Assembly (NCBI GenBank): GCA_040954595.2
Contig: CM082579.2
Location: 15,476,550-15,540,549 of the forward strand
From: Balanoglossus misakiensis
Taxonomy: Eukaryota > Animalia > Hemichordata
Length of the DNA stretch: 64,000 nt
Reading direction: 5' to 3'
Shown: positions 16,478-48,266 of the stretch, piece by piece
Layout of the letters: every line of letters starts with the position of its first letter
Position numbering within the stretch: the first letter of the stretch is position 1
The notes under the pieces: model-generated
What the model saw: the letters and a program-made list of their open reading frames with translations, nothing else
Told to the model about the DNA's origin: nothing
The model's database searches: none
Translations under genes and position numbers: made by a program

Positions 16478-16542
16478 TTTGTATATACGATGCTAGGAAC
16501 GTGACCCCAGCATATGACCTCAATTAACATATTTCCGCTTCG

Positions 16543-25271: not shown

Positions 25272-25947
25272 TTGGATTTGGAACAGTTTGCCAAAAATGA
25301 TGGAAAAATATGTTACCAGACTGTAATTTTCACTACAGGCTGAGTTAAATTGCTTAATTTAAACCACTCTGCTGTGCAATTAAATTTCTTTCATTTTTTT
25401 TCATATTATCTAGCCAAACGTAACACTTTTAGAAATGTCAAAGAATATATATATAATGAAAAATTGAAAAGCTTCCACTATCATAGAATAATGTCTACAT
25501 GTATGAAATTACATTTTTTTCATCATTTACCTATTTTTAATGTTTGAGTGTTGTCAGACCACAATTTTTTTCAAAGTAATAATCAGTACTTTGAAAGGAT
25601 GATGCCAGTTCATTGTAATCTCTCTAATTTTGTCAACCTGCCATTTTTAACATGGCGTAAATGTTTACAAAATTAAGATATTTTATACTTTTGATATCTT
25701 TACCAAAATGAGACAAAGAAAACTAGCTTAAATTACAGTATTTTATTCAATCTACTCAAACAATGCACTATATTTTGGTAGCTGGTAAAATATTTGACTT
25801 AAAATGACATTGTAGCATTAAATTGAATCTAAATATGTGCAACTGTTGAAAAATCTATCTAATAAATGGTATATGATGGAACAAAATGTAGCTATAAAAT
25901 CAAACAAGGAAAAATGGTCAAAAATATACAATAGGAACTTGTGCTTA

Positions 25948-26628
25948 ATGACCCTCAACTATTGAAGACCATCACAGATATGACCCTCTATTTTTGAAGG
26001 TCACTGTGGACATGACCCTCAATTATTGAAGGCCATCACAGATATGACCCTCTATTTTTGAAGGTCACTGTGGACATGACCCTCAATTATTGAAGGCCAT
26101 CACAGATATGACCCTCTATTTTTGAAGGTCACTGTGGACATGACCCCCTATTTTTAAGGTCACTGTAGACATGACCCTCAATTATTGAAGGCCATCACAG
26201 ATATGACCCTCTATTTTTGAAGGTCACTGTGGACATGACCCTCAATTATTGAAGGCCGTCACAGATATGACCCTCTATTTTTGAAGGTCACTGTGGACAT
26301 GACCCTCTATTTTTGAAGGTCACTGTGGACATGACCCTCAATTATTGAAAGCCATCACAGACATGACCCTCTATATTTGAAGGGCACTGTGGACATGACC
26401 CTCAATTATTGAAGGCCATCACAGATATGACCCTCTATTTTTGAAGGTCACTGTGGACATGACCCTCTATTTTTGAAGGGCACTGTGGACATGACCCTCT
26501 ATTTTTGAAGGGCACTGTGGACATGACCCTCAATTATTGAAGGCCATCACAGATATGACCCTCTATTTTTGAAGGTCGCTATGGCAATGCCCCTCTTTCT
26601 GTGAAGGCCACTTTTGACGTGACCCTGA
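25948..26628. repeat. Minisatellite, 32-bp unit with two interspersed variants, about 21 copies
   Basis: A: atgaccctcaattattgaaggccatcacagat; B: atgaccctctatttttgaaggtcactgtggac. Confidence 0.95.
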
Positions 26629-27053
26629 AGACATCTGACTAGATGATCCCTTTTCTTTCATTTTCCCCCTCTGTTCACGAACTTTCGTATTAGAAATAAC
26701 CATTATTACAAATAGCTGTCAGTGATAGGCAGGAAGTTTTGAGGGACATGTTACATCATATTTCAATAGTTTTGTGTAGTTGTAGCATCACAACAAAATA
26801 CTCAAATGAACAATAATTTCAATTTTTTCTGAAAGCAATTTATTGTTAATAAAGTAAAAATAGGTATATACAACTTTATGAACAAAATCAGTGTATCTCA
26901 TAATCTGTGGTAAGACATATAGCATATGATGACCAGCTCACCTTAAAATGCAATCACTGGGAAAGGGACAGAACTACTGTCATTCGAATGGATGACCAAA
27001 TTTCAAAGCAATCAAATGTGTGGCAAAAATTCTCAAATATCTTGCTACCTTAA

Positions 27054-27227
27054 AGGTATACGGTCACCTATACAAATTTAGCCACAGTTACCATGGTAAA
27101 TCGAGATCTAACCAATCACAGATTTTCAGTGGGTGGCACACGCGAAAATAAAGCGTTCTTTAGAACACTCAAATACGCCATTTCAACTATATATGGCGAT
27201 ATGTAAATTGGAGGTGACTGTATGCCT
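27054..27227. mobile_element. Kolobok-like MITE with TTAA TSD
   Basis: TTAA|aggtatacggtcacct ... aggtgactgtatgcct|TTAA: 16-bp TIR with 2 mismatches and RR...YY termini. Confidence 0.7.
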
Positions 27228-27766
27228 TTAAATGGGTGTACATGTATATTTCCTGGGTATGAGATAAAACTTGGTGTGTGACTGACAGAATTTGAAGAAG
27301 GTGTTTTTCTACCATGTTTTACAAATGCAGATATGACACCCAACTACTATTTGACTCAAAGTGACTCTAGGCTCCAGTAAAAATAGAAGTTTTACAACAT
27401 GCAGCTTATACTGCATGTCACTTAAAATCCAATACAAGTCATTCACCCTACCCAAAAGTTGGGGGATTTTGCTAAAATCTAAATGGGAAAGGGGCTAGAG
27501 ATAAGCACTTTTTAGCACATGACAAATAACCATGGTCGTTTTGGTACAAGTACTGTTGACATCTTAACATTTCAAAAACCAAATATATATTTACAATCTT
27601 TTGTTTGCTTTGAGTGTCTGTATGTCACACATTATGAGAGGTACATTGAAAAATGTCTGCACAGAGTTGAGAAGGGCTAATAGATTCAGTTGTAGTAAAA
27701 TCACATGACTTATGGTTGTGTAGATTACTTGGACCATCCACATACACGGCTTCCATAAAACAGATC

Positions 27767-30700
27767 CTAGGCTTCATCTTCATCTTCTATGTCCATTATA
27801 CAGTTAACTACATCTTGGATGATGGAAAGATGGTCCAAGTCACTGGATGGAAAAATGCAATGTCGTCCTGCCTCTACTGCTGCTAACAAACCAGTTGCTG
27901 AAACAATGAAAAAACAGAACTGTCATATTTTACATTTCCATACTTCAATCTATATAAATACCAGATATTAACTGAATATGCTCACGTGCAGTACTGTGAT
28001 TGGTTGACAGAATAACAAGATTAGAAAAACCAGTGCTAAACCATTTTGGTTTATAGTGTATATGGTGTAAGGGTTGTGTGTTGCACCATTGTGAAATGTA
28101 AACATGTTTGTGGAATTGTTGCCTTGTCAATTTTTGTAAGGGGTTAGGGACGATGTCAAATAACAAAAAATAAGTTTAGCTTGAAACCCCTGCACTCCCC
28201 CTTGTAACGTAATTGTTGAATACTGATCAGTGCCTCTTATTATTTCATTATTGTGACAACTCCATATTTAAACCATAACCAGGATAGAAAAGTACACTAT
28301 CACACGTATTGATATTTCGACAATATTTGAATGAAAACATTTCTTTTCAATTCTGAGTTTACATCAGGTCTTGATTTCTGTTCATGCCTAAGAACCTCTT
28401 TAACAAGTTTCAATAAGGAAGACATTTTGGCAAACAACAGGAAATTCAGACAAATCTGACTGATATCACATATATGAATTCCCATTCAAAGTTTCCAATC
28501 AATTGGACTTGTGGTTTTACTGAAGACTATTTGGCCAAACCCTGCAGAAATTCCCAAAAAATACAATTATGCAAATTTCATTACAATTTGATCATATCTG
28601 ACTGAGATCACCCCTAGGAACCCAAATACAAAGTATCAAAACAATTGCACTTACAGTTTCACAGGATTTGATTTTTTGACAAAAACAGGAAATATTGCCA
28701 AAAATTGCATTTTTGCAAATTTCACCACCGTTTGCACAAATGTGATTCAGGTAAGCCCTATGAACCTCCATACCAAGTTTCCAATCAATTGGACATGTAA
28801 TTTCAGAGAAGATTTTTTTTTTAACAAAACTGCAGAAAATTCCCCAAAAAATTCATAAAAAATAGCAAACGCCAGATACTGACTCCACCTGAACAAAATC
28901 ATACGAGGTCTTCCCAAAGTACTTGCACACCAATGCACGCCAATTTTTAACTGAATCTGATCCGCTGTTATTAAGTTTTTCAATTTTGACTATTTGAACA
29001 TTTTTCCAGTTAATATTGCTATAAGCTGACATTGATATACATGTTAGCCAAAAACCAAAATCAACCTCAAAATAGACATTAAAATATATTGCACCACCAT
29101 GAGAAGACAAATTCATTCTTCGACAAATTTTCTGGGGCGTCATTGATATAGCATGGCATATTGTCAAAGTACGTAGTCTCTGTGATAAGATTCCATACAC
29201 ACAAAATGGTAACCTTGGAAGTCCAGCTGACGTAGTTATGCAATGGCGTCTCGTGTATTCCGTCGCCAAAAAATCATCGTAAAATTGATAGTCGGGGTCA
29301 CAATTCAAGACGACTTTCTCTAAATTCTTTATGAATGGATTAAATCGAAATCGAAATGTTGACGTATGACGTACGGAATGAGATCTGAACAGACATTCAA
29401 TGTTATCATTCTCGCTCGATCACATATTGGGTAGGCCATCTAGCAATCGCTATATAGTATTGGCGATAACAGACTGTCTATAAACACACAAAACGGATTT
29501 TACTGTTTAGTGTGATCAACCGCCATGTTATTTTTCTCTGAACAATAGACAAATAGAAAGCCTGGTGACATTTTGAGATTGACTGTAGATTAACAATTTA
29601 CGCTCTATGAAGCAACTAAACAACGTTAGCTTCCTTGTGGATTCACGTAGGGAAGTTATTCGTAACGACGGGTACAGCGTCTCAGCATGGACAGAACCAC
29701 GGCAATATCGCCAGGAATGTCTCATTTCACAAATTAAAAATTTGATAATTTCATTACTATCCAAGCCACACCTACCAAAACCTTTCCAGTTCTTGCCATT
29801 TAGATCCTGAAACTGTGTAACTGTAACGACGAGTACACTGTCTGAGCACAGAGCTATATACTATTACACAGCTACAGCCCAAGCTACAGCTAAACTGGAC
29901 TTTCTCATTCCACAGCGCCCTCAAACAGTCGATCTCCTCAAACTACCGTTTCCACTGGTCATATATGCGGCATTAACGAAAGCTCTCATAGACAACCATG
30001 TAATAGAAAAATTAAAACTTTAATAACTTCATTAATATCAAAGCCACACCCACCAAAACCTTTTCAGTTCTTGCCATATGATATCTGAACCTGTGTACTA
30101 AATTTGGTTGAAATCGGTTCAGCGGTTCTTGAGATATCGGGTATACAGACAGACACACACACATACATACACACACACAGACATCGCTAAACCATTAGCT
30201 CACGTGATTTTCACGTGAGCTAAAAATGATGACAAAGAAACACATACCCAGATTATTCTGAAAGCAAGTTTGACATTATTGTAATCCTGGATATCACACA
30301 TAATGTCATAATGGACCTGTTGATTATAAAATGGTATTGTACTTTTTACAAATAAGTCTTATTTATGACAGCCCCCCCCCCCCCCACCAGCATACTGTTG
30401 CTTTATTCTGAAGTTCTTGAATTAGTTGTCTCAAAGCTATATTTGATTATATCATGATTGAATACACCCTGTAATTTCATATAAAGAAACATACCTCTCT
30501 CACTATCTGAAACATGCAGGACCCACTCTCCAGGATGGCTTAACCAATTTATTGTTTGGCTGTAGAGGCCTGTTGGTATCTCACCACTCACTTGCTGTGT
30601 TTTTGTTGACCAGACATTCTGTGTTGTCTTGCTGAAATTTTCCAAATAAGATTTGCCGTCACCAAAGTAGCCTATAGCCAAACATTTCACAACATCTACC

Positions 30701-33700
30701 AATCCAGACTTTTGACCTACAGGTGAAATACAAAGGGATATAAACCTTTTGTTAGTGCCATGTACAGAAGAAGTAAAGTATCCTACTTGTACAATTATCT
30801 ATAGTTGACAAGTCATTGTCAATTGCAAAGTCCCTGATGACACATACTTATTACACTCGTCCAAAACATCACTGAAAAATCATTGTTGGCTGAAACATGC
30901 AAATGAATAAAAGCAAAGGAAATTCGTATAAGATGGTCACCTAGCAGCCTTATTTTGATACTGATAATATATGAAACATATTTAGGTACTTGCATGCCCA
31001 TTTTCCTGTCAATCTGTTCATTAGTTATTGAGTTTTTGATTTTGATACTCTAATTAAGATACCACAGTCAAGGTGGGGAGAAGAAGTTTTCAAGTTTTTG
31101 TAGTGGATGAAATTACATATATACAGATAAACAAGTGATCCTGTACTCTCCAAACTTGTATACATAATACATGTATACCAAGTTGCAACAGCATGTGTAA
31201 ATGGCCTTATTCTAACTTATATTGAATAAATACCTCTGGAACAGTTTTCCACATGGCAGTATGCCGGTTGAACGTAGCAGTTTTTTTCCTTCTTGAGAAC
31301 TCCCAGAACATCACTGATCTGCATTACATCACAAATTATTGCAATATTATACATCTTCTTTTGTGAATCACAGTTGACAGCTTTTATCATGACAACCAAT
31401 CGGTTGATATCATCAACAGACCATTCCTACAAGAAAAAATACGTTGAGTGTCATTAATAAAACTGTCATTGTGTAGTTGTACTCACAATGATAACTGTAT
31501 AAACAGTCAGTGTTGACAAGAATGACACTGGCAGTTTCAACAAGATAGAAATAGCTGTTGTTCATACAGCACAGTTAATGCCGGTCCCATATCATTTTTG
31601 TTATTAACCATGAACACAAGTTGTATACTGAGTGATATTCAGATATCAGTGAATACAATCACAGTTATATAGTTTTTAATGAGCTTTTAATCAAATTGAT
31701 GGATTCATACCAATGGAAGTACACGGGTGTAAGGTCATGAAGAGGTCATGGAAACGGCTAATTGGTTGCAAACATGTATGTGACAAGAGTAGAATTTTGA
31801 AATAAAAATAACTTACCTTAGGCATATCAATCAATGTTAAGTCAATGCCAGAAAACCCTGGGCAGTGTTCCTTTAGGAGAACTGTATTTAAATTTTGGAC
31901 AGCCTCTGAGATCGTAAAAGCATATGTCCCATTTTGGGAATATGCTGCAGCCTTTTTCGTGTTATCTTTGTACTTCTCCAACAGAAGCAACCGCTGGCAG
32001 TAGTTGACAAATCCGTCTGGAATTCCTCTGGAGAAGGACAGCTTGGTAAATTCCTCCAGTCTCTCACGTGTTGCTTCTTTCGGAAATCGTTCAGTCGCTT
32101 CTTTCCACCCACCATCCAAACAGTTTGTCTGTTGACAAAAGCTCCTCTGTATAATGTCTAACTTTTTCAGAGTCGATGCCTCCTTACACATTTCAGCATA
32201 TGACATAGTGCTGTCAATTACATTTTCCAACAGCAGGCGCTGATCCTCAGTGTCTATACAGAAAAAGTCTTGGAGTTTGCTGTAGGGTAGAACAGGTCGA
32301 TTCTTATACTCTTCTCCTTTTAACTTCTGGTCTTTGGTTGCCCCATCTTCATACATCTCTATAACAGACATCATCAGTTCAAAGTTTTCAACCATGGATG
32401 AAATCCCATAAATAGTTTGCATCATGGCACTGTTGACTCTCTGTAAAATGAAAAAAAAAATGATTACAAAATTGTTTTCATACAAGTATAGTCATAAAAT
32501 CATACTACTTAGACCGATTTCACACATATTTATAAGTAACTATAAATCAGTGGAATCCAAAAAAAAAAAATCATTGAGGAATATTTGCCAATTTGTGTGA
32601 GGTGTTTATGTATTGGTTGTTTCGTCTGTTATTGTCAAATGCTATACCTTGTCAAATTGATTTTCATAGAAAGCTAAAGCTCTATATACACAATGTCATT
32701 CATAATATTTTCTAAATCATATTGGGACATCAATCAGGAGAGTTTTCGTACATGGTAAAAAAGCATTGAAAGCTGGGAGGAATTAGAGACATAAGGTATC
32801 TATGGAGTAATTTTCCTTCAGGAGAACATCGGGTCTGACTACAATCAATATAAGAAATATTAAAAACCACTGAAAACATGGTAAAGCTGCACAAATATAA
32901 ATACATGTACTTGCCTCTTTCAAAATCAAAGCACACGATTTTTCCCAATTCGCTTTGTCGTCCTCATTTCTTGTTCTTTCATAGAGTTCTCTACACACTT
33001 TGACCTACAAACACAAGAATAGATTACAGCCATTATTAGTCAATACTGTGTGTACTAACATTTCATATTAATTAGTATCCCAACAATTAATTGATCCTGA
33101 ATGCAAAGTGAGATGAAATGCAGAAGAATACCAGTTTTTTGTGTTAAAACAAACAAGCTCCAATGATAATCATTTTTGATATTGTGAACATGTCAGCCGA
33201 TGGAACATCAGTGATCTCACAAAAAATCATATTTGTGCCTAAATAAAAAACTAAGCTATATGAATTTTCTCCATCATTCAACTTCTGTCAGTGTTGTTTC
33301 AACTTTTTTTAAGAGTTTTTTTTTTTTTTTTTTTTTTGGGGGGGGGGTGCAGATATGAAGTAGCTAAAAAGCATACCAGCTAAAAGATGTGTTTCAGAGT
33401 ACAATCTTGTTGTTAAATTCAGGACAATAGTGACTAGGACAGAAGCCAATAACACTGCAATGTAATGTTTCTTACAATTCCTAAAACTTTATTTCCCAAC
33501 ATTGTCTTATCTGTGTTGAATTAGGATTTGATTTGTAATTGTCATGATCATTATAACACTCATTCACATCACACACATTACCTTATCTTTAAAGCTCATC
33601 TTGCTGTGCTGTTGCATTGTGATGTTGTGTTGGTTGGCTAACCACAGTCTCTGCTCCTCATTCAAGTCAGCATACACCACAGCATATCTGGACTGCAGCT

Positions 33701-36700
33701 CTTCCCTATCGGGGTATTTTTCAGCCAGATTCTTTACAGCAAGATACGAGTGTTGGCCTCCAATCACTTCGTAAGTGTAACCATTGACCTAAAATTTGCA
33801 ATTAATATATACATTAAAATTAACATGGGTTATGAATCTAATTTTCAAATCAATCCAACCAGCAGTTTTCAAGATTTATACTGATCACTCTCATGTTTGT
33901 TTCAGCTAATATGATGGTAGTGTCAAACAAAATCTCAATCCAGTGTGCAACTAGAAAAATAATAAAAGATGATCCATCCTTTGTTTCCAAAATATTTGTA
34001 GAGGAAACTATTATGTCATATACATGTACGCAAATGTACATTTTCCAGCCAATAGGAACTTAGCTTGCCATACATATCCCAAATAGGAGCAAAGAATATT
34101 ATGGCATAACATATAAACCTGTCCAAATAAATCAGACTGATCATGCAAATGAACAATAAAACCACTGTCCTTGTTAGCCTTAGAAATAAGAAATAAATTG
34201 TATTACAGTAATATACATTTTTTGCACTTACATTGCTGTCTCTGAAGTTTAGCTTGGTTTCTCCCTTCAAAACGACAGCAAGTGGCTGATATGCTTCGTT
34301 GTAGAACTCCTCCATATACTCCTGAAGGTGCCTTACCCAATCTTCATTTACTTCACGGATTTGTTTTCCAACTTCCATTGATTTGATGCTTATAAGATAT
34401 GTTCCTATGAAATGGTGAAATTTCAAATACCATTGTCAATTATATTCACAAAGATTACTCATAAAAACAGAAAATCTTTTTCTGTATTGATATTGTTACT
34501 GTAAGTTACTGTTACAAGTTTATTGCTAAAATGCACACAATATTGCTTCAGCCGTGCACGTATTACAATATGGGACTTTCTAGCTGAATTTAGTTACCAC
34601 CATATAAAACAAGTCTTTCTAGAAAGATACAAGCTGCCACTTCTAGTGTCTAAGCTTGATTCATGTTTACATACCAATATGACAACTTCTGATACTTTTC
34701 TTCATCGCTTCGGTTTCTTTGTCAATTTCAGCAACCTTTTCGTGTATTTTCTTTCGCTTTTGTAGAGATGGTATGGCCAGTGCTCTGGCTTGATCACACA
34801 GCCTTTTCCTCTTCCTTGATTTTTTTTTCCTTGGAGTTTGAGTTCTGGATAAAAGAAAAATACACAGAATTACTTCTTTTTGTGAAGAAGCAAATTTTTA
34901 GATAAGTAGGAAAGAAACGTAGTTTCACGCATCTCAGACATCATGCATCATTCTTAAACACATTTTGAGTTCATCATTGTCATAAAAGTCTAGTGAGAGA
35001 CTTATCAAGCAATATGTCCCTGATTATGTTGCAATTTCAAAGATGAAATGAACTCATGGTTTTAATCTAGAAAGAAACATGACACATTTTGCATCTTTCA
35101 TGACATGTCCATTGCCAGATATTTATCTGCTGTGTTCTGCTAGAAATTTACCTGTAGAAAATGTTAAAGCCAAAAATCATGTTGGACTCTCACAGGAATT
35201 TCAAGTCGTTCAAAAAATGTTTATAGGGATAAACTGTGTTTACGCCATCTTGGAAATTTGCAGTGCATTATGGGTCAATTGAGTTCTCGTTGGGGGGGAG
35301 TAGCGTCTACAACCGCTGGAAAATTGGATAGGTTGTAGACGCTACTCCCCCCAAACCGGAACTCAATTGACCCATAATGCACTGCAAATTTCCAAGATGG
35401 CGTAAACACAGTTTATCCCTATAGGGTAGGTTTGGTTACTTGAAACTGACAATATATTTGTGAGCCTCAACACTTACCCTGCGGTATTTGGTTCTGAACT
35501 AGGGCTATTTTCCTCTACACTTGGGCAATCTTCCTCTTCATCCATGTCATCTTCATCAGACAATTCCACACTTGACACAGACATAGTACTGCACGGTGAT
35601 GAACTTGTCTCCCCAGTTTTTTCCAATTCCAGCAGCCTATTGAACTCTTCTGCGAAGTCAACTGGAGTCTGATAATCTCGTAATTTCCGAGAAAATTCAC
35701 TCTTGTTCCAGGTGAACGATGAACGAGAGAGCTTGAAGGGATTTTCAACTGGAAGGCTGAATACAATCTAGTATGAGAAATAAACAGTTTGTTAGTGAAC
35801 TATAGTTTCAAAAGTTACTACATCATGCACAGCACCAACATAAATCTACACAGCTTAGCTTGAGTGGTCTGGTAGTCTATGCACCAAAATAAACACGGCA
35901 AATAAGAAATTCACATGAACATACATGTATGGCATAGTCAGCAGCACAGTGGATTCCCAACAATACAAAACTGGTCAGTTTTTTTTTTCAATCTGTGGCA
36001 TGTTATTGAATGTGGTTTATTGAATGTGGTCAGGTGCACAAGAAAAGCTAGAACTGATTTGAAAAACTGATTGGCCCATGTATAACGCCCCTGCTTTAGC
36101 TGGGTATGTAGAGAACTACGCGAGGCCCTAGTGTTTTCTGGTTTCCAATTTTCAAAGACAATGTTACGCCAATGTTGTACCTTTTTCGGGTCCCAAACAC
36201 GTTCGACGACGTCACGTCGTCAGGTTAAAAGTCATTTCAAAGCCCGGGAACTCACATACCTACACAACGCAGGGCTAAGGCTATGACGTCATGATGCAAA
36301 ACCCATACTTTTCATTAGCTTTGTGTACACGATCAACGCCGCTGGTTTGGGAAACGCGATCGTTGATCGAGTATTGCATAGCCACATACGATTCAATGAA
36401 TTTGAGAGTACGAGACCAGAAATATTACATCGCAGTGGCCTGGAGCACAGTCGCCTGGGAGTTGGGTCGTAAACACTGCGCCGTGTATACGATCCAACTC
36501 CCAGTCGACTGTGCCTAGTCTAGGGGTACCACAAGCATTTGTAATGGCGCCCATTTTTGAAGTTGGCTAAATAAACGGATCACGACCGGAACTGAAGCAA
36601 GATAAGACCTTAAATACTTACCTTGACAAAGTCATCGTTTTTTTCGGCATGGGCACCACTATCATAGGCTACAACTTTCCTTACTGCGCTGTATGGAGTG

Positions 36701-36807
36701 CTTTTCTTTTTCGGATGAAGTTTTGAGGGGCCACTGTCCTTGTAGTCGAAATATACAAACACGGCATCGTTTTCCCGTTCGAACCACCAACGGCGCGCTC
36801 TAGGCAT
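27767..36807 (-). CDS. 10-exon gene (~761 aa): ParB/Srx-like domain plus degenerate beta-class N6/N4 DNA methyltransferase-like domain
   Basis: Exons 36807-36622, 35767-35478, 34844-34675, 34404-34232, 33788-33582, 33004-32915 (GC donor), 32440-31817, 31426-31234, 30716-30495 and 27897-27767 join in one stop-free frame (2286 nt). Motifs: IREVNEDWVRHL..QPLAVV..YEVIGGQHSYLAVKNL; GIDLTLIDMPK; LYSQTINWLSHPGEWVLHVSDSERATGLLAAVEAGRHCI. Confidence 0.8.
28330..30225 (-). mobile_element. Intronic HINE/Helentron-like repeat, probably composite; left boundary uncertain
   Basis: Terminal hairpin ttagctcacgtgattttcacgtgagctaa (about 30195-30223) lies next to a (CAGA)/(CA)n microsatellite. Core repeats aaagtttccaatcaattggac occur at ~28488 and ~28775. 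Confidence 0.55.
35222..35423. mobile_element. Fold-back MITE with ~90-bp near-perfect arms and TA ends, intronic
   Basis: tatagggataaactgtgtttacgccatcttggaaatttgcagtgcattatgggtcaattgagttc...gagtagcgtctacaacc is mirrored by ggttgtagacgctactc...acacagtttatccctata. Confidence 0.85.
36445..36514. repeat. Short imperfect hairpin / micro-MITE
   Basis: gcacagtcgcctgggagttgggtcgtaaacac pairs with gtgtatacgatccaactcccagtcgactgtgc. Confidence 0.65.
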
Positions 36808-37458
36808 TTTGGACAGGCAATCACTGAGCTCTTGTCGTGTTCTAAATTCATACTGTACAAGTTCAAGTTTATATACACCAACAAGAAGCCCATGTCGCCG
36901 ACGAGGCTGGCGACGCTTTGCATAATTAAGTCAATCCGCATTGACATTTCACCTCCCAGGGAATATTTGCATTTTAAAGGTCATGGGGTCAGCCGTGGCA
37001 CACACCTGTACACGTACATAGGATCTGGGAGTACATGTATTTGTGACTGCAAAAGTACTAATAATCGATATAGGCCTATACATTAAATAAATGTTTTAGA
37101 TGTGATGGACAATATTTGCTGGTGTAATTAACACTCCTCCACTCTTCAACGGGGAAATCAGTAAATCAAAATGTATTCAACTGTATGATGCACCATATAG
37201 GGTATGACCGTAATTGTGAACCCGAACATAGAAAGACAAGTCTCTTTATACAGTGTGGCAACAGCTACGTGCCCTCACCGTCCCTCCGAACGCCGGCCGA
37301 AGCCTATACTAGTACTTAGTAAACTCTTTTTATTTCAACAGAAGGAGTTTGTTTTCCGTAGGTTCGTGTTGCGAAAAATAGGCCAAAGGCAGCTCTTGCT
37401 GGCGAGAATGAGAAATAAATGTGTTCCCGGTCACCCTAAAACTTTTTTTCTTGGGAGT

Positions 37459-37812
37459 TAGCTCTGCGTACAGGTCTGTGTGTTTCCGGCGTTACACGGT
37501 TACCGGTTGAGATAGACATATTGCATGCAGGCTTAGGCCCAGGCCTACAGCGAGTTTATTTCCATGGATAGGCCTAAACACAAAGGTTTTAGAAAGCGAG
37601 CGATTCGGACGTTATAAGAAGTAAATCACATCATATTTGGACTTGTTTAGGAGTAAGAAGTAGACAGGGAAAGGATTTTCCCCCCGCAAACATCGAATTT
37701 CGGCTGAAAAGCTGCGGTCCGGACGCACCAGTTTTGTCTATGGAGCCGTGCAGGGCCGTGGTGGAGGCCGTGTAACGCCGGGAGCACACACACAGACCTG
37801 TACGCAGGGTAA
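37459..37812. mobile_element. Palindromic MITE with 9-bp TSD (AcademH-like)
   Basis: Arms tagctctgcgtacaggtctgtgtg..ccggcgttacacgg and ccgtgtaacgccggg..cacacagacctgtacgcagggtaa. Flanks cttgggagt / ctcgggagt. Confidence 0.75.
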
Positions 37813-39480
37813 CTCGGGAGTGAGCTTTAATAAATGGGGTGAAAATCGGGTGTGATTTCAGATTGAGATCCAGGTTTAATGACACTTGTTTTTAATCGTT
37901 TATTTCTCCTTATATTTCATGTTTTCCCCCAACACAATATATATTTTCTGTTAGCTTTATAGGCCTACTTAATTTTCGGTTCTCTTTCTGTTTTGCGAAA
38001 ATGCACAATTGTCAGTATGTTTACTCAAAGAATTGTAAATAAAAAGACAGTGCCTCCAGGTGATCGACACCTGGATATATTGGAGAAAATAACTTACCAT
38101 GGAATTTTGATATTCACTTATTCACTTTTGTTTTCGAACAATGAGACTTTTGAATTGCCAACTGTCAATTTTTTGCATAAAAACGATCATAAATAGTACT
38201 TACTCACTGTGTTGTTATGTTTTAATGAAGTAGTATAATACTTGAGACTTGAGAACAAGCCATTTTAATCTAGAACGTTGTGCACGTTCATAAATCGGGG
38301 GAGAATCGGGGAAAAACGACACCATTACTGACAGAGTACAATATTGATTTGTTATACAGCAAACACGGGGCTGTTAATCCCCGACACTGATAACTTCTCG
38401 AAATGACACTAATCCCGTTAAGTACACACTTAGCCCGTTAAGTACTAGTATACACTTCTGAAAACCCATTTTTATCTTATTTTCTCACTCCTACAGTAAC
38501 ATGTTTTAGTAATTGTACATTTGGGGGTGTTTCATTGCTCTGTGCCCGGTAAATTAGTCTATGCCACGGAGCATGATGATCGGGTCCTGATGGAAGCCAT
38601 AGTTGACAATCATGCTGGAAGTCGCTTGACAAAGTATGCCTGTCAAACTTCCTGTTTTTGCTGCTAGCCTAACTTTCGAAAACTCAGATTTGCATATCTT
38701 GACGTTATCCCCTGGGCTCCTGTGAATCGGTTACCAAACTTCAACACTAATCCGGTGACAATTAATCAGAAACGTTGGCTTCTCCAGATTTCTGGTAGGA
38801 AGCTACGGGGATGACAGTAGGAATAGTTTTGGTTTTAGTCCCAGCTTAGCTACTCGCTTCAGAGGGATGAAATGGTTCGATATGAACGGCACTGTCCGCA
38901 GACAAAGCAGCGAAATGGGTTTTTCTCGCTTGACACTTTTATTTATACCACACTGTAATACGGAATGATCTGCAAGAAGTTTAAATGAAATGTTAGAATA
39001 CAGAATACACGATAGGGAAAGTACGGTACAAAAAACAGACTCTTACTTAGGCCTACCCCCACCCCCCTCAGGAGTTTACCACTGCCAGTACCATGCATAA
39101 CCAGCTGGTACGCGCATGGTGTGAATAGGTGTGAATATTGGGACCAGGGTACCCCCCCCCCCCCCGGCCTCATCATGTACTGGAGGTGTGAATCGGGACC
39201 CCTCGAAATAAACAGTTTGTATATAGTCTCGGGCCCAGGTGTTTCTAGACTAAACCTCGCAGGCACCTCCAGGACTAAACCAATGATGGTTATCTCAGGT
39301 GTTTGGAGCGAGTGTGCCCATACGTATAAATGACAAATTTGTACAATTATTTGCCCATTCTTTAACTCGTTTCATGGTTTCATTTAGTTCGTTACTCATA
39401 GGAAAGTGATATTATTCACTAGATCTTTAGAATGAGACGTACATATACATTTGGGTTGCCGATTGGCTACACCTACCCCC

Positions 39481-39511
<31 letters not shown>

Positions 39512-41500
39512 ATCTGGAACGGTCGAATCAGCTTCCGGCGGAAGGAAGCAAAATCTGTCTTTGCTGAAGGCGAAGGTTACTCCCGGCTGTTCACGGTCAT
39601 ACGTCAACATCGCTACGCAAACGCTCACGCTCGCCATCGTTTACGATCGCATTTAACAGATATTCCTTGCATACCTACATTTAGTTCTTGTCTATCGTAT
39701 TAATCGTCGTCGTCCGTCTGTCATCGTTTTTCTAGAAGGTTTTTGAGAGTTTTTTAAAGGCCAAAGACTTCGGAGCACTGCAGTGAAGGAGGTAAGTTGA
39801 GTTTTCAGTGTGTACACAATGTTTGTTACTTTCGCTCGGGCGAACCAGTTCTAACTCTTGTGTATGTCTGAATTTGCCATGTTTCTGTAAGTGGGACCAG
39901 TTCAGAGTACACCCGAACAAGATGGATTCAGTTATTTTGTCGATGATTTTGTTTTCTTTTCTTTTTAGTCACTTGTCTAATAACTCTTTTCACTTTGAGC
40001 GTCCAGTTTTCACACTTGACTGAAAGTAGGGAGTTCAGAATCCAATATGGCGGCTACACGAACTGCCGTACACAGTAAAATATTCCGTAGTTCTAAAATG
40101 ACAATTTCTCGCTCTGACAACTTGGCAAAGTAGCTCATTGAAGTTATTTTCTATAAGCTGAGTAATTTTATTCACGTAATATATAGCATGCTGTGTTTTG
40201 TCTCCCTCGGGGAAACTTCCACTTGCACACAATCGTGGACGAGAGCCAATAGGTACTAAGCTTTGAAAGTAGTTTCAAATGATAGCCAATGAGATTAGCT
40301 GTAATATGGTATTTTGAGCAATATTGACAGTTTTTGACCAAAATTCCATTAAAATTAGCGTATGCAGATGTGGATATCTGGAGAAGTAGTTGGCCGATTT
40401 TGATTTTTTTTACTTCTTTAATGAAGATGCAAAGAAATATTTCATGAAAAAAATGAGCTATCATACAGATAAAATTTTCACTGTACTCCCAACTGAAACA
40501 CACCCCCTTCCAAATCCCCATGCGAACCAACTTGCTAATTGTTGTGACTTTTTTTGTAATTGTGCAAAGTTGCTGATTTGTCAACATTTTCGTTCTTTCC
40601 TTCTCGTGAAAAACTAAGTTAAACAACACCAAGTCCTTCTTTTGAAAGCTTAGATGTGAACTTTAAAAGCACAGGTTCGCACTTTCTTTTTATTTGTGTG
40701 CGACACTTATTAGCATAACAAACAGCAGGATGTGTATCACTTGTACTTGTAGTAGTTGTGTATGAAAGTCATATGCAAATTATGCTGGCACTTTCTCAAA
40801 TTGTCTCCACAATTCAGAAACAAAAATGATTAAGACTTTGGCACGAAGGTGTTATGAAAGGGGGCGTGGCGCATCTGTAACATAGGCTTGTTTCTGTGTT
40901 CTAATAGTCTAGTTTACAATTTCTCAGTCTAAGTTTACTACTCTCAAATTATAGTTTCATAGCCTACTAGTAACTTGTTTACTACTCTCAAATTATTTAA
41001 AGTAGCTGATAAAGTGTCATGTTATATTTTTTCTTTCTTTCAGTGTATTTCCTGACCTGTAGTTTCCAATGGAAAGGGTTTGGTTAAACGTTTGGCCGAC
41101 TTGTCTTTTATATTTATAATCAGTGCAATTTTTATGTTTGTCAGTTTGTAATTCTACAAATTTTTGAGATACATATATTGTTTCCTCAACATCCCACAAT
41201 ACTTTTGTAAAAGTCATTTACTCTGTCAGTGTTTTAGTCTTCTCTATTGTGTTTTCTTAATATTGATGTAATAGTGGTATCACTAACTTTTAATCTGTGA
41301 CTATATATACTGACATCAGTTAAGTCTAACTGTTATTAATTGAATATTAATATTTTATCCTAATTTTGCTTGGACTAATACATTGTTTACACTTTTTATA
41401 ATCCTAACCAGAGATTGCGTTTTTATTTTTTTATAAACCTAATCTTAGATAATTATTTTTTGTGCTTTTCCATAATAAAAGTGTTGCTTTTTTTCCTGAT

Positions 41501-44500
41501 ATGGATAATTCTGATAATCTAACTGTTGATCATTTCATGGAATGCACATTTATAGAGCAGGAGAAATTTCTAGGCCACAGAGGGATACGAGCAGATGATA
41601 AACAGGAGCAGCTGGCTGAAAACGAAGAAAAATGTACAGATGAAGAGTCAGACGTCAGAACAGACTGTTGGAGTTCCACGAGCGATTGCGGAACTGGTAC
41701 CAGCATAGCCAGTTTTTGCCCAGGTCACCAAAACATTGTCAACTCGGACAGCATTCCTGAATGCTCCCGTCCTGCCTCCTTGGTCGCAGCCACTCTTTCT
41801 ACTGCAAGCAGTTACACAACAACAACAATAGCAACACATGCATTCTCAAGTGATGAGCCTGGCGAGCACAGTTCTGCAGATGGTGTCGTTGCCGAGGAGA
41901 TGGATAATGACAGTGACGTGTCGCCTCCAAGAAAAAGATATCGTCGTTGCAGTCGCCGAATTTCCCAGCCATTGCGCAATTATACAACTGTTTACAATAT
42001 TCGTTGTTGTGACTCGAAATGCCTTCACTCATTCTCACCAAGCGAGCTGCGTGAAGAGGAGATGATGTTTAAAGACCTTGACAATGAGTCGAGACAAAAA
42101 CAGTTTATTATTGACACTCTCCGCCAGTTTTCTTCATTCACCTACTCAAAGAACAGAAGAAAGGCCATTGTCACGGACCTCAAAGTGCTTGGTAAGAAAA
42201 CATGTGAACAAGCATGGCGTGAAATCTATAATGTTAGTGAGAAAAGATACGAAGATTGTGTCAGACTTTTCCGTGACGGCAAGGTGAACATTGTACATGG
42301 CAACACACATATGAAAAGGTCAGCAGCCAAAACTGAGAGAGCCTTGTCGTGGATGCGGTTTTTATTTGAGCGAATCGGTGATTGGATGCCTCATAAGACT
42401 CAGGTAGGTTATTTCAAATCCTTATTTTAATTGAAGTTTCAAAGCTTCAACTCATGTCTGACAAACTTTGCACCAGTAACAAGGTGTGCCACATCTTTTT
42501 GAAAGTGTGAATGAACTGTGTAATACAGATGGAATACAGAAATAATCTTTACCAGATATAATCAACCGATTGAATTGACCAATTTTAATAGCTGTGATTT
42601 GAGAATTGTAGGGCCTTTGTGATCAGTTTAGGACCAACATCTGCGGTACTGTTTGTTTGTGTGCGAGTCCCTTCACTATAAAAACATGAGAACCACCTCA
42701 TGTGTCAAGTCATGTTGTATTCATAGGGTGATGCGTCCTGGACTTGCCCTTGATATCATCCTCTGCTCATGAACAAATTTTGTGTTTATAAACAACGAGT
42801 TTGTAACTTATGTTTGTACTGTACATGTTATCATTTATCTAGGTACATTTGCCAACATCATCTTCAAAGAAACTATTCCATAAAAGAATGCTGAAAGAGT
42901 TTGAGGAAGACTTGGGTATCAAGAAGGACGACAACATTAAATATGAGTATTTCACAGAAATATGGCAGAAACACCTGCCAGAATTTGTCATTCCAAAGGT
43001 TAGTAGGAAACATTTGGAGGAAATTTGTCATCAGTTGCATATGTGTCAGGACTAATTTTCAGATGATGCTTTTTAAAAGTTATTTCTGATTGAAGCTAGT
43101 CGATAGTTCAAGAGGGCATCAGCAGATGCTGACCAGAGGGGGGGGGGGGGTGTTTAGGGCAACTTTTGTCATTTTCAACCTAAAACATGCAACCACCAAT
43201 TGGGCATACTTTCTGCTATATAGTACTTAAATTGCTTTGCTGTCCTATTTTAGAGGTAATTAGATCAGCAGTAGACCATGTGTATCAAAGAAGTTAACAT
43301 TCTTGATTGTATCAATGAATAGATCAAGTGTAAATAATGTATCATTGATGTGATTTTTTTTCTGATTTTACAGCGTCAAGAATTTGTGAAATGTAGCATA
43401 TGTGTTCAGCTGAAGGAGGACCTTGCTCGGGCAAGAACAGCAACGGAAAGAGAGAAGATAAAGAATTTGATTGACACACATGTGCAGCAGGTTGAGTAAG
43501 TATACAGTTTGGGGAACTAAAAAAAACTAGATTGTGTATGAAAATGTAATCGGACAAGCTTGACAATGTCTTTAGAAATATTTTTTATTCAGTTTTAATG
43601 GAGAAGTACCGGTATGCTTTCATGACGATTTGATAGAATGGACTATAATTAACCCCTGAACATCTCTTTAATGTTACAGACCAGCTCATGAGTTTTTCTG
43701 AAATAGTTACTTTTACTAAAATGGACTGTTTTCATTACCGTAGGGTGTAAATGCAGGTTCAACTCAATGAAAAATATGTATGTTGTGTACACAATTATAA
43801 TTTCATTGTTTCTTTACAGGATTGAAAGACGGGTGTACCACAATACACAAGAACAAGCTAGAAAAGAGGCAGATGAAGTAATGTGTATAATCCAAGATGG
43901 CATGGACCAAGCAAAAACCTGTATTCCCCATCTTGTTGAGAATGACAAGTTGACTGCATGTCTTGCTCGTATAAGACTTCATCTTACTGGTAAGAAGATA
44001 TTTTAGAAGGGTTGGTTGGCCATGGCATCTGTATGTTTTCTTTGGTTATGTGTACGTCAGTCAAATGCCACATCATGAGGTTTTGTTGTGCAAATGTACC
44101 CCACTGTGTTACACATGAATTATTGTCAGTCAATTATCTTTTGCTCCGTTTGTTTTTTACTGAACACATACACATTCATATTTTTACATTTTAGGAAATA
44201 TCATTCACACAAATGTACCAGGGGGCAAGATAGTGCCAGCGTATTTGGATGTACTGAACTTTCCACATGACAGCAATCTGTCGATGAACCTCCTTTTGCA
44301 GACTTTGGTAGACAACAAAGTCAGACTATCAAGGAGATTGTTTGCCCAGATGGACAATTGTTACCGAGAGAACAAGAATAGATACATGCTGTCTCTTGGA
44401 CATCTTCTGGTTGAGTTGAACATATTTGACCAGGTAATAATTTATTTACTTCATGTACAGTTGCATGCAAACTATACCATTACTATATTGTTGGTCAATT

Positions 44501-47500
44501 ACATTGCATATCGTTTGTCCCCATTGTTTAATTTCTGTCCATTTGGGTATGAGGAATTGCCACAGGTTGTTCACTGAGGTCAGTCATCAGGTGATTCTGC
44601 ATGATTCAGTATAGTTATTTAGACAAACAGGTCACAATGTGTAACATGAATAGAGTAAACTTATTTTCAAAAGTTAGAGCTGCTATCCTTTTAAACTTGA
44701 TGTAAACTGGACTCGGGGTATGTTCATGACAGATCAAATCCTTTCAAATGAACAAAAGGGTACTCTCACACCCCTGTTACAGTCAAAGGATCTGGCAGTT
44801 GTCACTTCTTTGATTTTTAACTTTATGTTAGTGGGTCCATCAGACCAGACAAAAAAAATCTCTGTGGTTTAACCTTGCATAAATATTAGTCCCAGACCTT
44901 AGACCAATGAATTTGCTCACCCCTGTGAACAGCTGATGTGTGTAGGAGCCCTTGTCTTACAATTGCAAAATGTTAATCATTCTTATCAGTGTATAAATTT
45001 TAATGATAGAATTTAGTTTAATATCTCATGCAGTTCGTCAAGTATATGCTGATCATGTTTTTTTGAAATCAGTAGAAATGTACATTTCTTTCAAGTCAGA
45101 TATTGTCACTTCATGATTTTGAACATGGCATTGTTTATGCTACACTATGCATTGAATGTATATATATATTTGACATGTGTCGACCCTGCGCATAACTGTC
45201 AATCTTATGCTCCATCGATGTTGAAGTGTATTGAATACATAGTTTTGATAGATACGTAAACATACCCCTTAAAACTGATTGAATGAGTTCTTTTGTGTTC
45301 TGTTGCAGGTTGACTTCCACTTCCTACCAGTTGGACACACACATGAAGATATTGATCAACTGTTCTCATGCATTAGTAAACTACTCCGGAAGACAAATGT
45401 GTATACTATGGCAGGTGAGACAGTTGTCATCAACTTTCGATTAAGATTGTATGATTATCACTTTTTGACTGATAAAATCAGCTACTTTATAGTTCATATT
45501 CTAAATCTGCAAAAATATGCAATTAAGTAAAAAAAAACGTGTAAAAATGGTCAAAAATAAAATCTCACTACTAGGCAAATTGGTGAACAGGTACCTAAGG
45601 TTGAGACTTCATATACTTTTCTTAATTTTGTATCTTGGCAATTTTCTTCACATATGGTAAAGAATCCACTCTGAATTGGCTTGCCAAATTGCTTTGAAAT
45701 TTGGATGACAGACAGATTTGTCTATAATTGGTTAAAAAACTACAATCACAAAACAGGAAGTGTTGTGTTCTGAATATAACTCTGGTGTTCTCAGCACAGA
45801 ATGACAGACAAGTAATCATTTTAGTGTCATTAGAACTCTCATTCTAAGCGTGTAGAATCTGAGATACAGTAGGGCCAATATCTACACAATCATCATTCAG
45901 GTCAGTGTTCAAAAGTAAAATAAAAGGTTAGATCTAGAGAATAGGAGATATGTAATAATGATATAGAGAATAGGAGATATGTTATAATGATATCACGGGC
46001 TGTTTGGTGATATGAAGGAACTGGCTTATAGTTTGGATGCCTTCAAAGCATGGAAGACCATAGGAGAAAAAAATCCAATTAAAGTCATTCTGATATGCCT
46101 GATGCACTAGTGTAAAGCATGTTATTGGAACTGCACAATTTTACTGTTGTCCTCAAGGTAATATAATGGTACAGCCTGATCTGAAACCAGGAATATTATT
46201 ACCTATTAAACACCCCTGTGATTTTTTTTGTCTGCAGATATGGAGCGGATTATCACTGGCTGTTATAATGTACCTGTCTTCGTGAAACATGTAACTCATG
46301 TGTTTGATATTAAAAAGTGGTTGGTCCCACACATGAGCAAATATTTCAGAGGACAGTCGAAACCATTGTGTTTTCAGTTCAAGAAAGTAGATGGGCAGAC
46401 CAGAATGCGTTATCGGCACTACTCTACATCTGTCTGGAGGCCAACAGTCCAGTATCAGCAGGGAACCACCACACCAATTGATGAAAGTTTGGGGCTAAAG
46501 TGCTTACAGGTATTTATATTATATGATTTATATGCATCAATATAGAAGTTTGCAGTGCCCTGAAGACGTAACATGAAAAGGGGGACCATGCAATATTAGT
46601 ACTGAGCCGATTTGACATTTTTAAACTTATTTTAATGAGATCGACTTCTGTCATATCATGAGAGCAATTGGGCAATTTTGAATCAAAATATTTCCACCAG
46701 TTACAATTTACAAAAATCCTTTTGCCTGAACTGAAAATATTTTAAAATTGTAGTACTGATCAATGTACATGCTGTTTATCTCATAGAGTGTGCCAGATAT
46801 CAATGACGTTCCAGATTTTGTACAGCCATGCATAGAAAAAATGGACCCTGTGAAGCTAAAGAAGGATATCCCAGACAGTTATGAATGGAGAATACCCAGG
46901 GATGCTGACAGAGAGTGCCTGAGGGACTTTGTGGAAAATGTTGAAATATATGAACAGGTGTGTTATACTTCAGACATAAAAGGCATACTGGATATGACAG
47001 TTATTTTCAGAACACATATTGCAGAGAAAGAACATGCAATATAACATTCCTTTTGAAAAGCATAATTCCTTTGAGTGGTGAATTAACTATAAACTTGCAA
47101 TTTTTCTTAGTCTTTGCGGACAGCGTCAGGGGGACTGGGCTCTGTCCAGTCCTGGGGGGGGGGGGAGGGTATGGTCAATCTGCCCATCTATCTGTCAGTA
47201 CATGTGTCCGCCGCAAAGAACATGATAAATTTGAAGACATGGCTTGTTGCAGATAAGCGTTTTCCTAACTGCTCGAGTTTTTCTTTCGTGGATAATTATT
47301 ATTATATATTATGCACTCTGATTCACTTGTAGGTTCCACCAAACAGACCAACAACATGGTTTTTCCATGATCTGATTGAAGCAGCAGACCAAAGAAGGCA
47401 AAAGGAAACAGAACAGACACTACCAAGCCACCTTGAAGTGATCAGGACAAGAATTGAAAGAGAGTGTGATGATGTAAGTAGCATTTTAATTGTAACTATC

Positions 47501-48266
47501 ACTGGTTCAAGACAGAATTACACTAATGATAAATAGTGTTCTGAAAATGTACATGTGGATATATAGTGAATCAACATTCAACCACACACAACTTCCATCC
47601 CACTTGCAGAAACACACAAGTGAAAAATTCAAAAATTCAACTTGCGAAAATAAAATGTTTTACATTAATTAATGGGAAAAAGGCAGGGAGAGAGAGACTT
47701 TGTCCCTTTAATGTGGGCAGCACGTACTTAGTATATTGGCAAAGTAAAATTATTCCTGTCGACGGCAAAGGAGTAGATGTCTGTACATGCCAAAATTAGG
47801 CTCAGCTAGACTGAACTTGCCCTGGGTTTGGAGTTTGCCTGAAAAAAATTCAATTCTCTTTTAGACTATCAGCCATTTCAACTAGAAAAGCTAAATTAAA
47901 GGGTAACTTCACCTTTAAAGGGGACTATTTTTCATGACAGGCTTGATCATGATTTTTTTCTTTATTGTTAATAGCAAAGCCATTTTGGAAAGAAAAATTA
48001 TGAAAAGTGAAAACTCAATGTGATAAATAAAGTGTTAAATCTTATCAATCTTATAAAAAAAGACCTCTAAAAGTATTTTATTCTTTTTTTTTTCTTTTTA
48101 ATAGGTCATTATTGGAAGGACACCACGACCAATTAGTAGGGCAACAAATGACCAAGGAGATTGTAACAATAGGAATGGATTGGATACCAATGCAGTCTTG
48201 AATGTTGACAACTTTGAAACGTTACAGGAAGATATGTTTGTGGCTGTGTACATACACTATACCAAA
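41501..48266 (+). CDS. Multi-exon Sola-like / DUF7869-type DDD transposase; start uncertain, 3' end cut by a tandem repeat
   Basis: Exons ...-42403, 42843-42998, 43374-43495, 43820-43989, 44195-44433, 45309-45414, 46238-46509, 46787-46957, 47333-47473 and 48105-~48266 splice in frame. Motifs: CCDSKCL, IGDWMPH, FVKCSIC, IIQDGMDQAKT, AQMDNCYRENKN, FLPVGHTHEDIDQLFS. Confidence 0.85.

What the first reader, a model, noticed from the sequence alone, without database searches (positions are those of the whole stretch)
27767..48266. Candidate large transposon: ParB-methyltransferase-fold gene head-to-head with a Sola-like/DUF7869 transposase
Seen in sequence: two intron-rich genes point away from each other across about 4.7 kb, and each splices into a stop-free frame. 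The + gene carries DGMDQ / DNCxRENKN / GHTHEDIDQ motifs. The - gene carries a ParB-like block and two MTase-like blocks. Established: ParB plus beta-class N6/N4 MTase fusions are typical of phages and prokaryotic mobile elements, and Sola transposases use a DDD triad. Inference: the pair is one >20-kb animal DNA transposon with an intron-bearing cargo gene of ultimately prokaryotic origin. The cargo protein may act as an end-binding clamp, a targeting factor or an anti-silencing factor. I could not find the termini, so linkage rests on adjacency and orientation only.
Basis: partly seen in the sequence, partly recalled or inferred. Interest (0 to 1): 0.85.

Follow-up and report, generated by a model that had tools for sequence, protein, structure and literature searches.

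The report
Animal transposon with ParB pseudo-methylase gene
Two intron-rich genes with open reading frames sit head to head in a repeated stretch that is likely a cut-and-paste jumping gene of at least 23 kb in an acorn-worm-like genome; the second gene is predicted to join a bacterial ParB-like part to a DNA-methylase fold that lacks the catalytic motif, and it likely binds repeats near the element's own end, an animal variant of a design described in a brown alga.

Summary
Both genes splice with open frames: a 761-aa minus gene and a DUF7869 plus gene with all three motifs. Linkage now has evidence. Read depth is flat and about 3-4x raised over both genes and the spacer. In Ptychodera flava, 2 of 2 closest cargo homologues lie 4-5 accession numbers from a closest-clade transposase, on two chromosomes. 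A likely left end sits at 25245 behind AAAT (Sola1-type AWWT), and 20 imperfect inverted repeats lie 0.7-1.4 kb inside it. The right end is missing: a 576-bp array cuts off the transposase C-terminus. The cargo family is multi-copy in sponge, nemertean, sea-cucumber and acorn-worm genomes. It has a beta-class amino-methyltransferase fold (Z 23.9 to CcrM), but 0 of 118 rows keep the catalytic tetrapeptide, so it is probably a pseudo-enzyme. The design is published for Ectocarpus Sola1-1_Ec32. My literature searches found no animal report, but this scan noted animal cases on other DNA (e1-6729163, e1-6729164). Verdict: new variant of a known kind.

The parts
23985..25244 (+). Not part of the element: 5' piece of an LTR retrotransposon (LTR ~23985-24718, tRNA-Pro-type primer site 24719-24736, start of a gag-like ORF) into which the element likely inserted
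   Evidence: Sequence; primer site and gag likeness recognised from memory, Pfam gave no hit. A 5,336-letter contig of depth 545 (X1) and an 803-letter contig (X2) follow the window only up to 25244.
25241..25244 (+). AAAT, candidate left copy of a 4-bp target duplication (AWWT)
   Evidence: AWWT occurs at 4.2% of window positions. AWWT is called a Sola1 hallmark in PMC3845634. Right copy not seen.
25245..25554 (.). Probable left end of the element (begins AAC), shared by the copy types seen in the contigs
   Evidence: Depth 149 (X1) and 432 (X2) at 25411 and 25432; joints leave from 25272 and 25554. No matching TIR in 43000-64000.
25948..26626 (.). Subterminal array of about 20 units of 32 bp (64-bp dimer), each with the imperfect inverted repeat TGACCYTC-N7-GARGGYCA; candidate binding sites
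   Evidence: TRF. 20 sites, all here, none elsewhere in the window. Arms 16 of 17 identical between the two unit types against 7 of 15 in spacers, Fisher p 0.005. Symmetry of a single unit alone is not significant, p about 0.07.
27767..36807 (-). Accessory gene, 10 exons, 761 aa: conserved N-terminal domain (~1-110), acidic/basic linker, ParB-like block (IGGQH, exon 33788-33582), helical middle, beta-class amino-MTase fold with DMPK in place of the catalytic tetrapeptide and an eroded SAM motif
25555..31178 (.). Segment missing from most other copies (holds the array and accessory exons 9-10); 2-bp microhomology at the joint
   Evidence: Joint 25554 to 31179 at depth 124 (X1) and 659 (X2); depth steps from 48 to 158 at 31179 in X1; microhomology
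36808..41500 (.). Divergent intergenic spacer, CpG-rich near both genes, with a nested high-copy hairpin element at 37455-37815
   Evidence: CpG o/e 0.95 and 1.0 against 0.28-0.41 in downstream exons; depth; self-BLAST
41501..48252 (+). DUF7869 (Sola-like) transposase gene, 10 exons; candidate acidic triad in DGMDQ, DNC and EDID; C-terminal ~65 aa lost
   Evidence: 80-87% identical to P. flava P0165, P0166, P0173, P0174
48250..50553 (.). Four tandem 576-bp units (98% alike) that interrupt the last transposase exon; the element's right end is not recognisable after them

Best explanation
The two open, head-to-head genes lie in a multi-copy stretch that is likely one Sola1-type cut-and-paste DNA transposon of at least 23 kb, and its second gene is predicted to encode a ParB-like, catalytically dead DNA-methylase-fold protein that likely recognises the inverted-repeat array near the element's own end and so would help the element stay active or assemble its ends. 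Shown: both gene models, the family's fold (on a homologue), the missing catalytic tetrapeptide, raised flat depth over both genes, and the array. Inferred: that the DUF7869 protein is the transposase and uses a DDD triad (about 0.9); that 25245 is the left end (about 0.75); that the pair moves as one unit (about 0.9); that the accessory protein does not methylate DNA (about 0.85 for the family, 0.95 for this copy); that it binds the array (about 0.5). The array and protein would work like a parS/ParB pair, with the methylase fold kept as a DNA-binding or dimer module. This copy is non-autonomous or impaired: it lacks the transposase C-terminus and a visible right end.
For: Depth of the long X1 contigs over accessory exons, spacer and transposase is 158, 163, 175 and 178, against 48 for parts private to the long copy; they differ from the window by under 1%. 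P. flava XP_070561784 (cargo, 78%) and XP_070561780 (transposase, 87%) share the 47.3-Mb contig; XP_070555382 (78%) and XP_070555387 (85%) share the 48.2-Mb contig; chance about 5e-7 for the closest clade, or 2e-4 for 2 of all 9 cargo accessions against all 11 transposase accessions. These two cargo copies are the window gene's sister group (SH-aLRT 98, quick tree). Near-identical cargo copies lie at different loci, mostly on different contigs, in P. flava, Apostichopus, Holothuria, Lineus and Halichondria. AAAT flank. Fold: CcrM Z 23.9, rmsd 2.5, 212 residues. 0 of 118 rows carry (D/N/S)PP(Y/F/W), and the first position is D in only 48 of 118; replacing SPPY by APPA abolishes activity in rotifer N4CMT (PMC8885841). 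The ParB-like GG[QC]H is kept in 27 of 28 rows. Precedent: Sola1-1_Ec32, and inverted-repeat arrays beside ParB-like genes in Plavaka elements.
Against: No TIR pair or TSD pair was found, and no single contig spans both genes. Accession distance is a proxy, not a coordinate. 1 of 3 closest-clade P. flava transposase loci (XP_070569805/6) and all 7 loci of a second transposase clade have no retrieved cargo accession nearby; 7 of 9 P. flava cargo accessions have no retrieved transposase nearby, though that search was word-limited. Most copies in the source sample lack the array and exons 9-10 yet outnumber the full form, so the array cannot be strictly required in cis if they spread by transposition. 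Single-unit symmetry is weak (p about 0.07). The ParB match is weak (PHROG E 3e-4 on a homologue, 0.048 on the window exon). The SAM motif is intact in 12 of 21 rows, which leaves cofactor binding possible.
Confidence: 0.5

Rival explanations
1. Same transposon, but the accessory protein acts through protein contacts (transposase, chromatin or silencing machinery) or on target DNA, and the 32-bp array is an unrelated minisatellite or a transposase-binding site.
For: Deletion copies without the array are the majority. A conserved N-terminal domain of unknown fold is present. The ParB block has no arginine after GG[QC]H, unlike the CTP-binding GxxR motif of ParB (recalled).
Against: Arm positions are conserved between unit types while spacers drift. 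The array is subterminal and confined to the element. Such arrays lie beside ParB-like genes in red-algal Plavaka elements.
Confidence: 0.22
2. The family is an active N4-cytosine or N6-adenine DNA methyltransferase with a non-canonical D-x-P-x-x-W motif that marks the element's own DNA; only some copies, including this one, have decayed.
For: Complete beta-class fold with pLDDT mostly above 90. D-x-x-[SC]-G-T-G is intact in 12 of 21 rows, in sea cucumbers and Saccoglossus. Pfam N6_N4_Mtase is above cut-off for P0153 and P0159. The Ectocarpus authors propose self-modification.
Against: 0 of 118 rows have the canonical tetrapeptide; its first position is D in 48, S in 26, and H, Y, R or N in others. 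Sponge, nemertean and several acorn-worm copies also erode the SAM motif.
Confidence: 0.12
3. The gene is passive cargo, or serves the host, and merely rides on or near the element.
For: Most copies here have lost its 3' exons. Many P. flava transposase loci have no retrieved partner.
Against: Open frame across 10 exons; conserved motifs from sponge to acorn worm at about 27-30% identity; recent near-identical copies in five genomes.
Confidence: 0.09
4. The two genes are unrelated neighbours in a transposon-dense region, multiplied together by segmental duplication.
For: The window is crowded with other mobile elements. No TIR or TSD pair was seen, and the flanks of the other copies were not seen.
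Against: The same pair recurs at two loci on two chromosomes of another species. The left boundary is sharp, inside a retrotransposon gene, with an AWWT flank. A published element has the same layout.
Confidence: 0.07

Closest known systems
Sola1-1_Ec32 of Ectocarpus (PMC12477816; passages and supplement table rows read, figures and the .fa supplements not seen)
   Same: About 21.5 kb; transposase plus a gene on the opposite strand with a ParB-like domain and an N4/N6 methyltransferase domain; 4-bp TSD; termini begin AAC (AACCG there, AACAC at the candidate end here).
   Different: Brown alga against animal; 1104 aa against 761 aa. The authors predict methylase activity, while the animal family lacks the catalytic tetrapeptide. 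A 282-bp TIR is known there; none is found here. Direct homology could not be tested.
Plavaka accessory genes PAG2 and PAG3 of Bostrychia (10.1101/2025.02.11.637652; passages read, supplements closed)
   Same: Giant DNA transposon with a PF01555 methylase gene and a ParB-like gene beside tandem inverted-repeat arrays.
   Different: Different transposase superfamily. ParB is fused to a 2OG oxygenase and the methylase to a SET domain, in separate genes.
Phage ParB_N + N6_N4_Mtase fusion proteins (ParB-Tls loci in PMC4738411, passages read; phrog_498, phrog_67)
   Same: Same domain order. phrog_498 matches both the ParB block (P0004) and the SAM block (P0153). They are the nearest named Atlas and BFVD matches.
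   Different: The animal genes have many introns, an extra N-terminal domain and a long helical middle, and no canonical catalytic motif; tblastn identity to phage records is only about 25-39% over short parts (30 of 147 records listed).
Beta-class amino-methyltransferases CcrM, M.RsrI, M.PvuII and bdelloid N4CMT (PMC8885841; passages read)
   Same: Fold and permuted motif order (Z 19-24).
   Different: They carry DPPY/SPPY and are active. N4CMT is a host gene with a chromodomain that marks transposons; this gene is carried by a transposon.
Inactive N6A-MTase domain of DIRS1 retrotransposons (PMC4738411; passage read)
   Same: A transposon-borne amino-MTase domain judged inactive from its motifs.
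   Different: Another MTase group (PCIF1-derived), inside a retroelement polyprotein, with no ParB part.

Membership tests
Sola1 DNA transposons | DDD catalytic triad in an RNase H-like transposase | tested here: inconclusive
   Three acidic motifs are present and kept in P. flava relatives; DUF7869 matches. My model failed (pLDDT 36.6) and no solved relative was found. Linking DUF7869 motifs to Sola is recalled.
Sola1 DNA transposons | 4-bp target duplication with AWWT preference | tested here: inconclusive
   AAAT directly left of the candidate end (hallmark). The right copy is not in view.
Sola1 DNA transposons | Terminal inverted repeats | tested here: inconclusive
   No partner for 25236-25261 in 43000-64000 beyond chance matches; the right part of this copy is disrupted.
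Sola1 DNA transposons | Sequence grouping with Repbase Sola1 transposases | not testable with these tools
   No Repbase sequences are on hand; Bao et al. 2009 is not held.
Sola1 DNA transposons | Interspersed near-identical copies | tested here: met
   Raised depth with under 1% divergence; two P. flava loci on two chromosomes.
Beta-class N4/N6 DNA methyltransferases (PF01555) | Permuted amino-MTase fold, catalytic motif before SAM motif | tested here: met
   Model of homologue P0153: Z 23.9 to CcrM, 20.2 to PvuII, 19.6 to N4CMT; order in the alignment.
Beta-class N4/N6 DNA methyltransferases (PF01555) | Catalytic (D/N/S)PP(Y/F/W) | tested here: not met
   Window has DMPK; 0 of 118 rows canonical.
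Beta-class N4/N6 DNA methyltransferases (PF01555) | SAM-binding motif (D-x-F-x-G-x-G type) | tested here: not met
   The window copy reads HVSDSERATG. 12 of 21 family rows keep D-x-x-[SC]-G-T-G.
ParB/Srx-fold proteins | Profile or fold match to the ParB N-terminal domain | tested here: inconclusive
   P0004 hits four ParB PHROGs (best E 3.3e-4); the window exon hits phrog_6392 at E 0.048. No Pfam ParB_N hit. The domain was not folded alone.
ParB/Srx-fold proteins | Arginine-bearing nucleotide-binding motif GxxR (recalled) | tested here: not met
   GG[QC]H followed by S, T, N or C in 27 of 28 rows.
ParB/Srx-fold proteins | Binds cognate inverted repeats (parS-like) | not testable with these tools
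   A candidate array exists; binding needs an experiment.
Sola1-1_Ec32-type two-gene elements | Transposase plus opposite-strand ParB/amino-MTase gene in a ~20-kb element | tested here: met
   compared.

The most novel reading that the evidence does not exclude
An old, phylum-spanning animal lineage of giant Sola-type transposons (sponge to acorn worm) carries its own parS/ParB-like self-recognition system taken from phage ParB-methylase fusions, and members with an intact SAM site still write 4mC or 6mA on their own copies through a rewired active site. That would be a transposon-encoded bacterial-type DNA mark in animals.
Probability: 0.12. Interest if true: 0.85.

Novelty: new variant of a known kind. 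Interest (0 to 1): 0.52.

Why it matters
It extends to animals a transposon accessory class so far described in algae, and shows the family in four phyla with recent copies. It suggests that the methylase fold is often kept without chemistry, which changes the published idea of self-methylation into one of self-recognition. It also gives a direct test: one protein, one 23-bp candidate site, and family members with and without the SAM motif. Any active member would bear on the disputed origin of 6mA and 4mC in animal DNA; PMC8885841 stated that the bdelloid N6_N4_MTase had no eukaryotic homologues.

Tried and rejected
No whole genome is held, so copy ends could not be aligned. A word-indexed search with accessory exon 7 for longer proteins found nothing among 745 candidates; the index-free search found 183 proteins. 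No RNA holder was listed, which says nothing on expression. Reads were laid on 23500-43400 only; the right half has no read data, so the right end and the copy number of the 576-bp array are open. The transposase model was unusable, and a profile of 10 P. flava transposases matched no solved structure. Metagenome and viral contig scans with single proteins found no relative; a tighter alignment gave two animal-like contigs of 2.4 and 3.5 kb, too short to test linkage, with no transposase match. The hairpin repeats at 37455-37815, 51283-51349, 61715-61804 and 62743-62820 were rejected as element ends: depth 12,199 marks them as a high-copy family. An 8-nt match to the left end at 62438 was rejected as chance, since it has no AAAT flank. 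The I-CreI hits of the family profile were rejected: the same residues fold as the MTase core. The careful tree did not finish; the quick tree was used, with 32 chosen rows of 184 family sequences then held, and 13 rows under half filled. No complex was predicted, since no usable transposase alignment was at hand.
Full report
Observation. I rebuilt both genes from the sequence. The minus gene has 10 exons from 36807 to 27767, eight GT-AG introns and one GC-AG, and gives 761 aa without a stop. The plus gene has 10 exons from 41501, all GT-AG, 828 codons without a stop, with DGMDQ at 420, DNCYRENKN at 504 and GHTHEDIDQ at 539; 3 of 15 exon frames scanned hit Pfam DUF7869, all from this gene. Homologues confirm both models: the minus protein aligns over aa 3-759 with Saccoglossus P0153 and at 78% with P. 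flava P0151, and the plus protein is 80-87% identical to four P. flava proteins. The closest relatives suggest an acorn-worm-like host. One correction: the plus gene's homology stops at about 48252, where four 576-bp tandem units begin, and the last ~65 aa of P0166 are nowhere in the window.

The accessory family. A search of 1.84 billion representatives with exon 7 gave 183 hits at E<=0.001. I looked up 30 clusters (25 of this family, 4 of the transposase, 1 repeat member set). Named members come from Ptychodera flava (9 accessions), Saccoglossus, Holothuria (6 locus tags), Apostichopus, the nemertean Lineus (4 loci on 4 contigs) and the sponge Halichondria. A quick tree of 32 rows shows near-identical copies inside each genome and several deep subfamilies in P. 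flava, the pattern expected of a mobile gene. In 67 of 117 rows a valine follows the position where the window's exon 7 ends, which points to read-through of a shared intron and so to a long eukaryotic history (inference).

Fold and motifs. An AlphaFold2 model of P0153 (mean pLDDT 74.7) matches beta-class amino-methyltransferases over residues 520-759: CcrM Z 23.9, rmsd 2.5 over 212 residues; PvuII 20.2; rotifer N4CMT 19.6 (Foldseek agrees). The nearest named Atlas and viral matches are phage ParB_N + N6_N4_Mtase fusions, with scores of 0.84-0.86 that are leads only; the top Atlas row (0.92) is an unnamed streptophyte cluster. The ParB block is supported only weakly: PHROG E 3.3e-4 on P0004 and 0.048 on the window exon, with GG[QC]H in 27 of 28 rows. 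The catalytic tetrapeptide is absent in 118 of 118 rows, and its first residue is D in 48. The SAM motif is intact in 12 of 21 rows but eroded in the window copy; these row counts include isoforms and near-duplicates. Since SPPY-to-APPA abolishes N4CMT activity (PMC8885841, passages), I read the family as a probable pseudo-enzyme.

Linkage. Contigs from two DNA runs of one sample were laid on 23500-43400. In X1 the long contigs over accessory exons 7-8, exon 1 and the spacer, the mid-spacer and the transposase have depths 158, 163, 175 and 178 and differ from the window by under 1%; parts private to this copy have 48. X2 shows the same shape at other values (about 600-900 against 26-105). In P. 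flava, the two cargo copies that form the window gene's sister group (SH-aLRT 98) each lie 4 or 5 accession numbers from a closest-clade transposase on the same chromosome-length contig, on two different contigs. The chance of this is about 5e-7 for the closest clade, or 2e-4 over all accessions retrieved. Against: 7 of 9 cargo accessions, 1 of 3 closest-clade transposase loci and 7 of 7 loci of a second clade have no retrieved partner, from a word-limited search with 4 hits among 26 candidates, and accession order is only a proxy for position.

Ends. An LTR retrotransposon fragment runs from about 23985 to 25244; its consensus contigs in both runs leave the window at 25244, and the sequence beyond has depth 149 in X1. 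The four bases before 25245 are AAAT. AWWT is called a Sola1 hallmark in PMC3845634 (passages) and occurs at 4.2% of window positions. The candidate end starts AAC, as do the Sola1-1_Ec32 termini (supplement row); that is weak. No TIR partner lies in 43000-64000. A joint from 25554 to 31179 (depth 124 and 659, sides of 30 and 43 letters, matched by depth steps) shows that most copies lack 5.6 kb, including the array and accessory exons 9-10.

The array. About 20 units of 32 bp at 25948-26626 each hold TGACCYTC-N7-GARGGYCA; all 20 sites in the window are here (the pattern was derived from the array, so the shuffle count is not a test). I looked at its symmetry only after reading earlier finding e1-6729163. 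One unit's symmetry is not significant (p about 0.07), but arms are 16 of 17 identical between the two unit types against 7 of 15 elsewhere (p 0.005; arms chosen after inspection).

Mechanism. Most likely a Sola1-type cut-and-paste element whose divergent spacer drives a transposase and an accessory DNA-binding pseudo-methylase that recognises the element's own subterminal repeats, to shield it from silencing or to hold its ends (confidence 0.5 for the whole chain; about 0.9 for one element). Rivals: action through protein contacts (0.22), active non-canonical methylase (0.12), passive cargo (0.09), chance neighbours (0.07). The commonness of array-less deletion copies is the main result against a strict cis role.

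Known systems and novelty. PMC12477816 (passages and supplement rows) describes Sola1-1_Ec32, 21.5 kb, with an opposite-strand ParB-like plus N4/N6 methyltransferase gene, and cites similar algal cases. The Bostrychia preprint (passages) reports inverted-repeat arrays beside ParB-like Plavaka genes. PMC4738411 (passages) lists eukaryotic amino-MTase clades without an animal ParB fusion; PMC6431247 (passages) does not mention Sola or ParB. Ten full-text searches showed no animal report, and none for DUF7869. Bao 2009, Iyer 2011, Repbase, the Ectocarpus .fa supplements and bioRxiv supplements were not seen and may hold animal examples. This scan noted the same layout on other animal and plant DNA; those notes are unchecked. 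I class it as a new variant of a known kind, interest 0.52.

Noticed in passing
window 55609-58614 (-) and 62281-63800 (+): An open 1002-aa CACTA/EnSpm-type transposase frame (Pfam Transposase_21, E 5.6e-24) with a spliced, divergently oriented partner gene starting near 62380; a second head-to-head two-gene element that runs off the window.
   Followed up: partly
window 13185-15433 (+) and 15860-16492 (-): Two long frames (396 and 362 aa) that look like a RAG1/Chapaev-type transposase split by a frameshift (likeness recalled; no Pfam hit), with a convergent 211-aa frame.
   Followed up: no
window 4451-11018: Satellite of 77 copies of an 86-bp unit, 95% matches.
   Followed up: no
window 48250-50553: Four 576-bp tandem units, 98% alike, that begin inside the last transposase exon; origin unknown.
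   Followed up: partly
window 51347-54355: A 3-kb non-coding element with long terminal inverted repeats and TA flanks, inserted into one copy of the high-copy hairpin repeat.
   Followed up: no
window 37455-37815, 51283-51349, 61715-61804, 62743-62820: A high-copy hairpin repeat family that sits in CpG-rich, promoter-like parts of two different two-gene elements.
   Followed up: partly
window 35222-35423 and 36445-36514: A 202-bp fold-back element (depth peak) in accessory intron 2 and a 70-bp near-perfect hairpin in intron 1; other copies also carry about 830 extra bases at 35894.
   Followed up: no
window 18625-23340: Nested, repeated non-coding units with 155- and 238-bp periods, resembling the Helentron-like nests noted elsewhere in this genome.
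   Followed up: no
accessory protein aa 1-110 (exons 36807-36622 and 35767-35478): A conserved N-terminal domain (RxWW ... FxWNxSxFSR) shared from sponge to acorn worm, predicted as strands then helices, with no family match.
   Followed up: partly
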